A stretch of DNA of 64,000 nucleotides, from NCBI GenBank assembly GCA_951406725.2, contig OX597837.1, positions 37,882,001-37,946,000 on the forward strand, in the 5' to 3' direction. The position numbers and the translations under genes were made by a program. Each line of letters opens with the position of its first letter. The first letter of the stretch is position 1. Source of the stretch: Octopus vulgaris (Eukaryota). Below, piece by piece: positions 1 to 61,430 of this stretch. The notes below the pieces were generated by a model, which made no database searches, was not told where the DNA came from, and worked only from the letters and a program-made list of their open reading frames with translations.

Positions 1-388
1 GATGCGTGTATGTATGTGCATATGTATGTACGTGTGTACGAGTGCATATATGTACGTATATTTTTGTATGTTTGTGCGTATATACTTATATATGCATGTT
101 TGTACACACGTGGTTTTGCACAGAGTATTATTCTAGCGAATGTCAGTCAAAACATAACAAAATTAGAAGTTTGTTTCAAAAGTAATTTGGTGATAAGATG
201 ATAGTGTGGCCTTAAGATGGCAATAAAAGCTGTTTGCTGTTATGTACATTTAAAGGTACCTTTGACAATATTTACGGATTAAAATGTTTTTGGCATTACA
301 TAGACAATATTTTCCCGTAGGATATGAGCAGTTCCCCCTGAACACTATTTTTTGAATTTCTTCCATTTTTGGATTTTTCTGTTCCTGG

Positions 389-714
<326 letters not shown>

Positions 715-715
715 T

Positions 716-779
716 TTCTGTCATTGGACCAAAACTTTGCGAGTGGATTTGGTTGACGGAAACCGAAAGAAGCCTGTCA

Positions 780-818
<39 letters not shown>

Positions 819-1025
819 CTTTGTTTCTGTGTTTGTCGACCACCATCACCTGACAACCAGTATTGGTTTATTTACGTCCCCGTAACTTAAGGTTTCGGCA
901 AAAGTGACTGATAGAATAAATCCTAGGTTTTGAAAAAATAATTCCTGTGATCGATTTCTTCGACTAAAACCCCTTCAAGACGGTGCCTCAGCATGGCCAC
1001 AGTCAAACGACCGAAACAAGTAGAA
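716..1025 (+). mobile_element. SINE-A, 5'-truncated copy
   Basis: Matches body and 3' end of the full copy at 35798-36209 (gagtggatttgg..gacggaaac..; ggtgcctcagcatggccacagtcaaa). Confidence 0.85.
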
Positions 1026-1501
1026 GGTATCCTAACACACCTATATTCTCGAACGTACTTACGGCCATCCTTAGAGTTAATTACCCAACATCTTTAAAGA
1101 AATTACTATATATCGTGCACCAGTTGTGTTCATTAGCAATAGAACGACCGACATATTCCTTAACAACCATAATATTCTTTTGTGATTCAACAGCCGGGGA
1201 TTGTGTTATCCATTAGCTTTGCTTATCGCTCGTTTCTGTACGATAGTATAATCATTCGTTAATACTATACGGATAATTAGCAGATCGTTGTCGTATTTTA
1301 GTCATGGTAAGTAATGTCGAGCGTATTATGTACGGTCTGGTGATCAAGAAATTTGTCTCGCTACTAAAGTACTGCGATATCTTATATATGGTTATTTGGT
1401 ACACAGACGGTGGGGTGCGCAGACTGAAGGAGTAATGAAAAGATTTTTATTAATGCAGTTGAAATTGGATAATTAGGCGTAAATTAGATCAGGTTGAGTA
1501 A

Positions 1502-1572
<71 letters not shown>

Positions 1573-1922
1573 GATAGATAGATAGATAGATAGATCTGGG
1601 CGGGTGGATGGGTGGGTGGATGGGTGGGTGGATGGGTGGGTGGATGGGTGGGTGGATGGGTGGGTGGATGGGTGGGTGGATGGGTTTGGGTGGGTGTATG
1701 GATAGATAGATGGATAGTCTTTACAGATTGTGCAGCAAGAAATTGCAGAACTCTCATCTGTCGTCTACAACCGGAGAGACAGTGATATATGCACACACAC
1801 ACACACACACACACACGCACATATACACATACACACACGCAAACATTATATAACTGTGTATATGTACACATTCGTATTTAACACGCTCGTGTACACTCAG
1901 ACGGGGAAAAACTGTCGCTGGC

Positions 1923-1960
1923 ACCAACTGACGAAGTTGACTACACTGAAACCGGTGGGT
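1923..1960 (+). ncRNA. Degenerate minimal hammerhead ribozyme motif
   Basis: CTGACGA, stem II agt/act, GAAA, palindromic ACCGGT; cleavage position is G and stem I is poor. Confidence 0.4.
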
Positions 1961-1968
1961 CAAAAGAA

Positions 1969-2130
1969 TACAGTAATCTCTCTTCATATCGCGGTTCACT
2001 TATCGTGGTTCACTTATCGCGGTTCACTTATCGCGGTTTATCATTTAAGTTTACGTCGATTCCTCCGTGGTATCGGATTTAAAATAAAATAAATATATAC
2101 AAATTATAAAAATGACAAAAAAAATATACA
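1969..2130 (+). mobile_element. pogo/Tigger-like terminus with 14-bp subterminal tandem repeats
   Basis: TA-CAGTAATCTCTC..TATCGCGG start; about 4x tatcgcggttcact. Confidence 0.55.
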
Positions 2131-2390
2131 GTCGGCCCGAGGCTGTAGTAGAAGATACTTGCTCAATGTGCCACGCAGTGGGACTGAACGCGGAACTATG
2201 TGGTTGGAAAGCAAGCTTTTTACCAGACAGCCACTACTGCAAGTATTACTAGAGTTGGCTCAGACAACATTCTTTAGTCTTGGATAGTCTTCGGTAGGTT
2301 TTCTAAGATAAGGAACCAAATTCCCTTTCAAGGAGGGAAAGCCTTCCATTTCATAAATCATGAAATAATATAAAACAGACATATTCCCTC

Positions 2391-2484
2391 AAGGAATACA
2401 AGAGAAGGCATGACAATGTCGGCAGAATGGTTCATTGGGAACAATGTATCAAGTATAGATTGAAAAAAAAGCGAGAATATGGTA

Positions 2485-2488
<4 letters not shown>
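2391..2488 (+). mobile_element. R4/Dong-like RLE LINE fragment
   Basis: Translates KEYKRRHDNVGRMVHWEQCIKY..WYE (RHD..VHW motif). Confidence 0.75.
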
Positions 2489-2545
<57 letters not shown>

Positions 2546-2796
2546 TGAAGCTTTACTATAGCGTCGTATATTATCGACTGCTATTTCCAGTAAATATTGT
2601 TGTATCACTATTCTATATATATATATTTGTATATATATAAGTTTTATCATGGCTTACCGAATAATTGTCACATATTACATTTACAGATAAATTCCTCTAT
2701 TTACAATAATATCGAGGTCTCTTTCATTCTTTTGTTGTCTTACCATTTTTATCAATAGATATATATAGACCGCTAACTCCACAAGTTTTTTTTAAT

Positions 2797-12252: not shown

Positions 12253-12441
12253 AGTTTCACGTTCCCGTTCGTCGGACAGTTTTTTTTTTAACAAAACTGT
12301 CCGACGAAAGAGAACGTGAAACTCCGAGTAACAGCTTTTGTTAAATTTCTGTTGCTTTTAAATAAAGCATATTACTCTACCTCTGGTATTTGAGTACTCT
12401 TTTTTCCACCTTGTTTCACACATTTATGTGTTTACTCCGGT
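12253..12441 (+). mobile_element. Family F palindrome-plus-tail element with hammerhead (12288-12344)
   Basis: ctgt-CCGACGA-stem II-GAAA-ctccgag-TA-acag; partial inverted copy upstream; (TA)n flanks. Confidence 0.75.
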
Positions 12442-12470
12442 ATATATATATATATATATATCATACATAT

Positions 12471-41972: not shown

Positions 41973-41975
41973 ATA

Positions 41976-42015
41976 CTATACTGATGAGGTCTACTAGACC
42001 GAAACAGGTCCATAA
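41976..42015 (+). ncRNA. Hammerhead motif in probable inverted pLTR
   Basis: CTGATGA-ggtct act agacc-GAAA-cagg-TC; stem I degenerate. Confidence 0.65.
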
Positions 42016-42584
42016 TTGTCCCCTATGCCTGAATACAAAAGTCAAGCTGTTTCATAATCTTGTAAATTAACTGATAAATTTTTAATTTTTAGAAATTATC
42101 TCCCCTGTTCTGTTTCTAACAACTGTTGTTAGGGTTTCATTTGTTCTTTGCGTTTTTTTTTCTACAACTAAAACGTACATATCAATTAATTTATCGACAC
42201 CAAAAGGATGAAAGGCAAAGTCGACCTCAGCGATATACATATTATATAATACATGATATATATAATAACATCAGGCTAGCATACCAGGGGATAGTATATA
42301 TATTCCTATACTTTAAGTACTTAAATATTCATTTAACTGTAGGTACTTTACTCACATATACACCGACACATAGAAAACTACGCGCATATACACAGAGATG
42401 TACACACACACACACATATACATATATATGCACATATATACACTCATATATTTTTTATACATACATATATATATATATATAAGGCATATATTTATGAACA
42501 CACGTATATATATATTCACATATAATCATATATATATATATATACACACATATATACATGTATATGTATATATATGTATGCATG

Positions 42585-43619: not shown

Positions 43620-43840
43620 GTTCAAAATTGCACAAAACGAACAATATAAAGCAAAATACAATCCACAGGTGAAGGAACGAAAACAAGGTGTTAATTGTCT
43701 GACACTTAGGAAAAATGGGAGAAATGTTTGACGTTTCGAGCCTAAGCTCTTCAGCAGAAAGGAATGAGGAAAGGAAACGGATGGAGGAAGAGGGCGGTGG
43801 GGGAAGAAACGGAATGAAAACGTTTTTGGAGTAACAGCTG
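43620..43840 (-). mobile_element. Family E diverged copy with hammerhead-like motif (43726-43761)
   Basis: ttt-CTGCTGA-A-gagc ttag gctc-GAAA-cg-TC-aaa. Confidence 0.65.
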
Positions 43841-59082: not shown

Positions 59083-59136
59083 ATATATATATATATATAT
59101 GTACATACCCCGCTACACATATATATGTATATATAT

Positions 59137-59400
59137 ACTTTATTTAAAAGCAGCAGAAATTTAACAAAAGTTGTTACTCGGAGTTTCACGTTCCCATTCG
59201 TCGGACAGTTTTGTTAAAGTAGAACTGAGATGACAATTCGATCAAGATCTCGGTTCTATTTTAACAAAACTGTCCGACGAATGGGAGCGTGAAACTCCGA
59301 GTAACAGCTTTTGTTAAATTAAATAAAGCATATTACTCTACCTCTGGTATTTGAGTACTCTTTTTTCCATCTTGTTTCACATTTATGTGTTTACTCCGGT
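59137..59400. mobile_element. Family F element with two divergent hammerheads (59161-59217 minus, 59261-59317 plus)
   Basis: ttaacaaaactgt-CCGACGA-atg ggag cgt-GAAA-ctccgag-TA-acag(c)ttttgttaa on the plus arm, near-identical motif on the minus arm. Confidence 0.8.
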
Positions 59401-59413
59401 ATATATGTGTGTG

Positions 59414-60775: not shown

Positions 60776-60940
60776 GGCGCAGGAGTGGGTGTGTGGTAAG
60801 TAGCTGGCTTCCCAATCACATGGTTACGGGTTCAGTCCCACTACGTGGCACCTTGGGCAAGTTTCTTCTACTATAGCCTCGGGCCGATCAAAGCTTTGTG
60901 AGTGGATTTGGTAGTCGGAAACTGAAAGAAGCCTGTCGTA

Positions 60941-61009
<69 letters not shown>

Positions 61010-61136
61010 TTTATTTTATTTTAAGCAGCAGAAAAGAATTTTCTGCTGCTTAAAATAAAATAAAGCATATTACTCTACCACTGGTATTTGAGTACTCTTT
61101 TTTCCACCTTGTTTCACATTTATGTGTTTACCCCGG

Positions 61137-61174
<38 letters not shown>

Positions 61175-61241: not shown

Positions 61242-61430
61242 TTGTGTTTGTCCCCCTACTATCGCTTGACAACCGATGCTGGTGGGTTTACGTCCCCGTA
61301 ACTTAGCGGCTCGGCATAAGAGACCGATAAGAACTAGGCTTATAAAGAGCAAGTCCTGGGTCGATTTGTTCGACTAAAGGCGGTGCTCCAGCATGGCCTC
61401 AGTCAAATTACTGAAACAAGTAAAAGTATA
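60776..61430 (+). mobile_element. SINE-A split by a nested family F element (61008-61137)
   Basis: 5' half 60776-60940, 3' half 61240-61430; short palindrome plus family F tail lies in the internal (TA)n. Confidence 0.85.

What the first reader, a model, noticed from the sequence alone, without database searches (positions are those of the whole stretch)
59137..59400. Family F: back-to-back U4C hammerheads and a nested series of inversion lengths
Consensus ttaacaaaactgt-CCGACGA-ACG GGAA CGT-GAAA-CTC C GAG-TA-acag(c)ttttgttaa gives a 13-bp stem I, a GNRA-capped stem II and a one-nucleotide stem III loop that would need dimerisation. CCGACGA is in all four arms seen, so U4C is a family trait. 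Copies at 12253, 59137 and 61008 share the same approx. 75-bp tail but have different palindrome centres, consistent with variable truncation plus fold-back during reverse transcription.
Basis: partly seen in the sequence, partly recalled or inferred. Interest (0 to 1): 0.7.

Follow-up and report, generated by a model that had tools for sequence, protein, structure and literature searches.

The report
Penelope retrotransposon stubs with altered hammerhead
These palindromes match the ribozyme-bearing end of Hydra-type Penelope retrotransposons and are likely truncated insertions whose mirror half forms during integration, a known pattern; the one unusual feature is a family-wide U-to-C change in the hammerhead core that would likely weaken self-cleavage.

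Summary
Three copies (12253, 59138, 61009) sit in (TA)n, share a 73-75-nt tail and have different palindrome centres. All four arms that reach the core read CCGACGA. Contigs from four public runs show no C-to-T change at core position 4 at the 2% threshold, and nine different strand-switch joints. The family is most likely a Hydra-clade Penelope-like element (PLE). A model built only from metagenome relatives finds the three full hammerheads (E 6e-10 to 6e-6). Some of those relatives adjoin Hydra-type RT-endonuclease ORFs and show the same layout: one tailed arm, one tail-less arm, variable centre. Inverted ends, tails, (TA)n targets, 1-nt loop III and dimer-dependent hammerheads are all published. 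The two hammerheads lie on opposite strands, so they cannot form an active pair. Priming at two fixed RNA sites fits the asymmetry better than simple fold-back, but this is inferred. New: a fixed C4 with a 3-bp stem II. U4 was found in 110 of 110 relative hammerheads and 26 of 26 published Hydra rows. Cleavage is untested and the family's own ORF was not found.

The parts
59138..59246 (-). Inverted, tail-less arm of the main copy; outer end at the tail boundary, inner end 42 nt upstream of C3
   Evidence: loose-end consensus before 59247 in run X1 (12 contigs, agreement 0.75) resembles the reverse complement of 59232-59246
59161..59217 (-). Hammerhead motif in the inverted arm (C3 at 59204, C4 at 59203)
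   Evidence: model R1 E 5.7e-6
59232..59246 (-). 15-nt unpaired centre, belonging to the inverted arm
59247..59328 (+). Direct arm, 5'-truncated 27 nt upstream of C3, with a 12-nt deletion after 59318
59261..59317 (+). Type I minimal hammerhead motif: 13-bp bulged stem I, core CCGACGA (C4 at 59275), 3-bp stem II, 4-bp stem III with 1-nt loop, GUA triplet; predicted cut between 59303 and 59304
   Evidence: model R1 E 2.9e-8; cut site inferred from hammerhead numbering
59329..59401 (+). 73-nt single-copy tail with a small hairpin that aligns with the tails of Hydra-type relatives
12253..12442 (+). Second copy: partial inverted arm 12253-12283, centre in a 10-T run, direct arm from 12286 with hammerhead 12288-12344, tail 12368-12442
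   Evidence: model R1 E 6.1e-10
61009..61138 (+). Third copy, no hammerhead: arms 61009-61035 and 61039-61065 around a 3-nt centre, tail 61066-61138; lies in the (TA)n between the two halves of a SINE-like repeat
59119..59137 (.). TA-rich target flank on the left; (TA)n resumes after 59401

Best explanation
These are likely 5'-truncated insertions of the 3' pseudo-LTR of a Hydra-clade Penelope-like retrotransposon, in which a tail-less inverted arm and a tailed direct arm lie head to head in (TA)n and were probably made during integration. Most likely mechanism: the element's RT-endonuclease nicks both strands of a (TA)n target and starts cDNA at two fixed sites on the element RNA, about 73 nt apart (the tail). 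Each cDNA stops after a variable length, and the two truncated ends are joined. Shown here: the layout, one of two fixed outer ends, variable centres, (TA)n flanks, homology of hammerhead and tail to Hydra-type ends, and fixed C4. Inferred: that this family has its own Hydra ORF; two-site priming, by analogy with the Anolis PLE in vitro; and that C4 plus the short stem II leaves a weak ribozyme that would need a second RNA and probably the protein to cleave.
For: Model R1, built from 13 metagenome loci and no window sequence, ranks the three full window hammerheads first (49.8, 43.0, 33.8 bits; next hit 17.6). The same hammerhead lies just upstream of full ORFs in L023 and L069 and just downstream of ORF ends in L058, L001 and L036. 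The three full ORFs carry RWK/RWR, DKT, CxCx5C, CxxC and CxH, the Hydra diagnostics (PMC8557442 section 11). The published Hydra-2_Ajap end shares a 22-nt stretch across stem III and stem I with the window copies (by eye). Penelope-13_HM is listed with a 5' inverted copy and a hammerhead on both strands. In relatives, outer ends fall in two groups with none between: family A 40 of 60 at +61..77 and 20 of 60 at +133..137; family B 14 of 24 at +65..75 and 10 of 24 at +137..138. Of 24 head-to-head pairs, 19 have one tailed and one tail-less arm. In the window family, loose ends stop at the same tail boundary and 9 of 12 listed joints switch strand at different places. PMC11167929 (parts 1-2) shows both strands cleaved and extended, two RT start sites that delimit the tail, and insertion unaffected by hammerhead mutants.
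Against: No ORF of this family was found: tblastn of the window gave one hit at E 0.72, no genome is held, and the tail pattern had no match in viral or prokaryote collections. Membership therefore rests on about 120 nt of non-coding homology. The inverted arm at 12253 does not end at the fixed site. Of the 7 pairs where the tail-less arm is longer, 5 differ by only 2-5 nt, and L062 and L108 share one junction. Later deletion at a palindrome centre could also make asymmetry. The two arms at 59137 share a minority base (T at 59282), as fold-back would predict. The test of arm-to-arm likeness in relatives was not significant (P 0.17 with 6 loci, 0.24 with 4).
Confidence: 0.85

Rival explanations
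1. Same element, but the palindrome forms by fold-back or self-priming of one cDNA or RNA, as the first reader proposed and as Arkhipova et al. 2013 suggested for an antisense template.
For: The arms share private variants at 59137 (T at 59282, at most 3-7% of depth) and at 61009 (an extra A/T block in both arms). Relatives often join at a short A/T near-palindrome with 7-nt overlap. PMC3846280 argues for self-priming (passages).
Against: It does not explain a fixed tail-less outer end. The loop belongs to the tail-less arm at 59137. L120 and L034 have non-overlapping arms, and L027 a 23-nt longer tail-less arm. Shared variants also follow if both cDNAs copy one RNA or RNAs of one donor.
Confidence: 0.25
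2. A non-autonomous short element (retrozyme-like or SINE-like) with no ORF of its own, moved in trans by another Hydra PLE; the C4 hammerhead is a relic.
For: Summed contig depth falls more than tenfold within 25 nt upstream of the hammerhead. Loose ends show other upstream sequences joined to the same tail. The 2026 preprint 10.64898/2026.07.22.740005 derives animal retrozymes from PLE ends (abstract and part 1).
Against: The copies are dispersed and inverted, not tandem. The depth drop is partly an edge effect of the stretch laid. Relatives with the same layout have ORFs, and their stubs are equally short.
Confidence: 0.2
3. A fold-back DNA transposon or MITE with terminal inverted repeats, or an assembly artefact.
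For: Long inverted repeats in TA targets. One relative, L033, is a whole-contig perfect palindrome.
Against: The tail lies outside the repeat, the centres vary and the arms at 59137 differ by 4 substitutions and a 12-nt deletion. Strand-switch joints occur in independent runs. The sequence is homologous to PLE ends.
Confidence: 0.03

Closest known systems
Hydra clade of Penelope-like elements (Craig et al. 2021, PMC8557442), especially Hydra-2_Ajap and Hydra-2_Amil
   Same: 3' type I hammerhead with ACTC-N-GAGT stem III and CTGT/ACAG stem I, then a tail hairpin; (TA)n targets; 5' inverted truncated copy with a hammerhead on both strands (Penelope-13_HM)
   Different: Core is CCGA here and CTGA in 26 of 26 Hydra rows of File S2. 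Only 10 nt lie between core and GAA, against 12 in the close relatives. Stem I is extended by 9 bp. The family's ORF was not seen. It does not resemble the 3' end of the published Hydra-1_Obim (by eye).
PLE inverted pLTR plus optional tail (Arkhipova et al. 2013, PMC3846280; Frangieh et al. 2024, PMC11167929)
   Same: Head-to-head inverted pLTR with a palindrome at the junction; tail on one arm only; A/T-rich target
   Different: The tail is 73-75 nt here and about 68 nt in relatives, against the 30-40 bp cited in print. The whole insertion is reduced to 130-265 bp.
Minimal PLE hammerheads (Cervera and De la Pena 2014, PMC4209133)
   Same: Type I motif with a tiny palindromic helix III, predicted to need dimers; low activity in vitro
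   Different: The core variant described in the parts read is U3-A8, not C4. The G10.1-C11.1 pair they call highly conserved is A-U here.
Viroid U4C hammerhead (cited in Perreault et al. 2011, PMC3088659)
   Same: Same core change; said to lower activity considerably in vitro yet permit viroid infectivity (passage)
   Different: There it is a variant of a viroid RNA; here it is fixed in a high-copy animal retroelement family under at least two organism labels.

Membership tests
Hydra-clade PLE | Single ORF with RT and C-terminal GIY-YIG bearing RWK, DKT, CxCx5C, CxxC and CxH | not testable with these tools
   No ORF in the window and no genome. Met in relatives L023, L058 and L069.
Hydra-clade PLE | Hammerhead and downstream tail homologous to Hydra 3' ends | tested here: met
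   Model from 13 non-window loci: E 6e-10, 3e-8, 6e-6 (E-values rough); alignment
Hydra-clade PLE | Canonical hammerhead core (CUGANGA) | tested here: not met
   C at position 4 in 4 of 4 arms; no T at 2% in 4 runs. A single-base departure from an otherwise matching motif.
Hydra-clade PLE | Insertion into (TA)n | tested here: met
   3 of 3 copies
EN+ PLE insertion structure | 5' truncation with an inverted truncated copy at the 5' end, and a tail on one arm only | tested here: met
   3 of 3 window copies; 19 of 24 pairs in relatives
Hammerhead ribozyme, type I | C3, G5, A6, G8, A9, G12-A13-A14, A15.1-U16.1, NUH triplet, three stems | tested here: met
   stem III closes only as a dimer or with an opened loop; no Rfam match
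Hammerhead ribozyme, type I | U4 | tested here: not met
Hammerhead ribozyme, type I | Self-cleavage | not testable with these tools
   Folding only: the double-hammerhead form is 4-12 kcal/mol above the dimer minimum for the three arms, against 2 and 17 for two U4 relatives
Non-LTR retrozyme | Head-to-tail tandem units, each with a hammerhead | tested here: not met
   Copies are single, dispersed and head-to-head; definition
MITE or fold-back DNA transposon | Inverted repeats at both termini with a constant interior | tested here: not met
   Tail outside the repeat; centre differs in every copy

The most novel reading that the evidence does not exclude
A Penelope family spread to very high copy number in more than one species after its hammerhead fixed U4C and lost a stem II pair: a natural knock-down showing that PLE hammerhead cleavage is dispensable in vivo, with the motif kept as a binding or priming signal for the element's protein.
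Probability: 0.3. Interest if true: 0.55.

Novelty: new variant of a known kind. Interest (0 to 1): 0.3.

Why it matters
The layout is ordinary for Penelope-like elements and needs no new system. Two points have value. First, the role of PLE hammerheads is open (PMC8557442 calls it unclear; PMC11167929 found it dispensable in vitro), and a high-copy family fixed for C4 is a ready natural test. Second, many short copies with two fixed outer ends and variable centres would let a host-genome breakpoint map decide between two-site priming and fold-back.

Tried and rejected
No whole genome is held, so no direct genome-wide map was possible. Rfam: the whole-window scan listed only microsatellite-driven miRNA matches among its best 150 of 593, and no hammerhead family matched 59140-59400. 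No coding gene was evident among 170 long frames; Hydra and Neptune ORFs found nothing in the window by tblastn. Pfam gave no family for the four Hydra-type proteins scanned and RVT_1 plus GIY-YIG for the second L058 ORF. The tail pattern had no match in viral contigs or prokaryote genomes, nor a C4 hammerhead pattern in viral contigs; the 10 viral matches lack hammerhead context. Sequencing runs: no RNA holder listed; X15 is only guessed to be RNA, so nothing is claimed on expression. The arm-likeness permutation was not significant. L033 was left out of arm comparisons as a whole-contig palindrome. Folding energies do not separate active from inactive forms. The protein search showed a large family (2842 hits among 7999 scored) but no link to this DNA. 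Literature: U4C with hammerhead ribozyme gave 1 paper; CCGACGA with hammerhead gave 13 papers, of which the 10 listed are unrelated by title; Hydra clade gave 2 listed. Lunse et al. on dimeric PLE hammerhead variants is not held, and it, Repbase or Dfam may already list this family or a C4 variant. The supplements of Cervera 2014 and of the Octopus vulgaris repeat annotation were not read.

Full report
Setting. The window is A/T-rich DNA full of microsatellites, with a two-part SINE-like repeat that has 12 hits for each half. From recall it looks like an octopus genome; this was not tested. No genome is held.

Observation. Three copies of the family are present, at 12253-12442, 59138-59401 and 61009-61138, each between (TA)n runs. 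The main copy is an inverted arm (59138-59246), a direct arm (59247-59328) and a single 73-nt tail (59329-59401). Its arms differ by 4 substitutions and a 12-nt deletion. CCGACGA occurs in four arms. Three arms hold a whole type I motif: 13-bp bulged stem I (12 pairs in the inverted arm), 3-bp stem II, 4-bp stem III with one loop base, and a GUA triplet. The pattern has 3 matches against 0 in 100 shuffles. The inverted 12253 arm is partial and the 61009 copy has no hammerhead.

Family-wide view. I laid contigs of 4 of the 24 listed runs (X1, X9 and X15 of organism A, X2 of organism B) on 59226-59400 at 80% likeness and a 2% threshold. Loop III varies (T in 9%, 90%, 37% and 52% of depth) while C4 does not. 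Summed depth in X1 rises from 4e4 (59250) to 5e5 (core) to 3e6 (tail), against 28-55 for single contigs. The tool warns that this is no copy number, so I take it only as a sign of a very abundant, 3'-biased family. Nine of the 12 listed joints switch strand, each at a different place and each in one contig per run. The loose end before 59247 resembles the reverse complement of the 15-nt centre, so that centre belongs to the tail-less arm. Loose ends at 59322 and 59325 show other upstream sequences on the same tail; their cores were not seen, so 'fixed C4' applies to the subfamilies that aligned.

Identity. A pattern that allowed C or T at position 4 returned 120 metagenome loci (scan stopped at 36 of 64 parts) and 10 viral loci. 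Of 143 matches in these 130 loci, 110 (97 loci) have hammerhead context and all 110 have U4; the 22 C4 matches and 11 further U4 matches lack it. The hammerhead lies just upstream of full ORFs in L023 and L069 and downstream of ORF ends in L058, L001 and L036; in L056 an inverted RT fragment is joined head to head with a tail-less end. The three full ORFs have the Hydra-clade motifs. A covariance model from 13 of these loci, with no window sequence, ranks the three window hammerheads first at 49.8, 43.0 and 33.8 bits, and the next hit scores 17.6. The match covers both the hammerhead and the tail hairpin. In the supplement of PMC8557442, the Hydra-2_Amil end matches one relative family and the Hydra-2_Ajap end shares 22 nt with the window copies, both by eye. 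All 26 Hydra rows of its hammerhead table have CTGA, and Penelope-13_HM has a 5' inverted copy with the motif on both strands. The window family's own ORF was not found.

Mechanism. In two relative families the outer ends are bimodal (family A 40 and 20 of 60; family B 14 and 10 of 24). The upper group is capped by the reference length, but a longer family A reference gave mostly +133 to +139. Of 24 head-to-head pairs, 19 have one tailed and one tail-less arm, 4 are cut by a contig edge and 1 is an artefact. Among the 19, the tail-less arm is longer in 7, the tailed arm in 6, and 6 are equal. Only 2 of the 7 differ by more than 5 nt, two share one junction, and the search pattern biased centres to lie near the hammerhead. 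PMC11167929 (parts 1-2 read) reports cleavage and extension of both target strands and two RT start sites that delimit the tail. Two cDNAs started at those sites, cut short and joined head to head, would give all these features; this is my inference. Fold-back, proposed in PMC3846280 (passages read), explains shared arm variants but not the fixed tail-less end or non-overlapping arms. My test of arm likeness was not significant, and later deletions could blur the centres. I put about 85% on Hydra-type PLE stubs, and within that about 70:30 for two-site priming over fold-back.

The ribozyme. The two motifs are antisense to each other, and a read-through RNA folds into one hairpin, so the arrangement is a by-product of insertion. 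Dimer dependence of such motifs is published (PMC4209133, parts 1-2 read; PMC6765202, passages). U4C is known from a viroid, where it lowers activity in vitro but permits infection (PMC3088659, passages and section 8). With the A-U pair at 10.1-11.1 and a 3-bp stem II, the motif is likely weak. Activity was not testable.

Verdict. The structure is already known for PLEs, including this clade. The fixed C4 core and the 73-nt tail make it a new variant of a known kind. I found no C4 PLE family in print, but Lunse et al. was not available and repeat databases were not searched. PMC13282606 (passages only) has no mention of ribozymes in its main text. An earlier scan note on a shark window (e1-7858806) reached a similar reading; it is unchecked and not used as support. 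Interest 0.3.

Noticed in passing
window 41975-42016 (+): A second hammerhead-like motif with canonical U4 core after a TA-rich stretch; weak Rfam Hammerhead_1 match (16 bits, E 0.27, below the gathering score). Possibly the end of another PLE family.
   Followed up: partly
window about 43725-43754 (-): Another minimal hammerhead-like core with U4 and a short stem II, near a (TA)n run.
   Followed up: no
window 60776-60940 and 61251-61425, and 11 further hits of each half: Two-part SINE-like repeat with a (TA)n-rich middle; the 61009 copy is inserted into that middle and the 59137 copy lies just upstream of another copy.
   Followed up: partly
L058:3107-5605 (-) and 403-2565 (-): Two different PLE ORFs in tandem: an 833-codon frame with RVT_1 and GIY-YIG Pfam hits upstream of a Hydra-type ORF that Pfam misses.
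   Followed up: no
L023, L058, L069, between hammerhead and ORF start: The tail hairpin motif occurs twice before the start codon in these Hydra-type elements, which might mark the two priming sites.
   Followed up: no
Alignment A2, columns 11-15 with 36-40: In U4 relatives the core can pair with the stem III strand to form an alternative helix, kept in 13 of 13 sequences; C4 opposite the C or T loop base of the window family would break the middle pair.
   Followed up: partly
L033:1-10244: The contig is a perfect palindrome centred on a back-to-back pair, an assembly artefact that such insertions can cause.
   Followed up: yes
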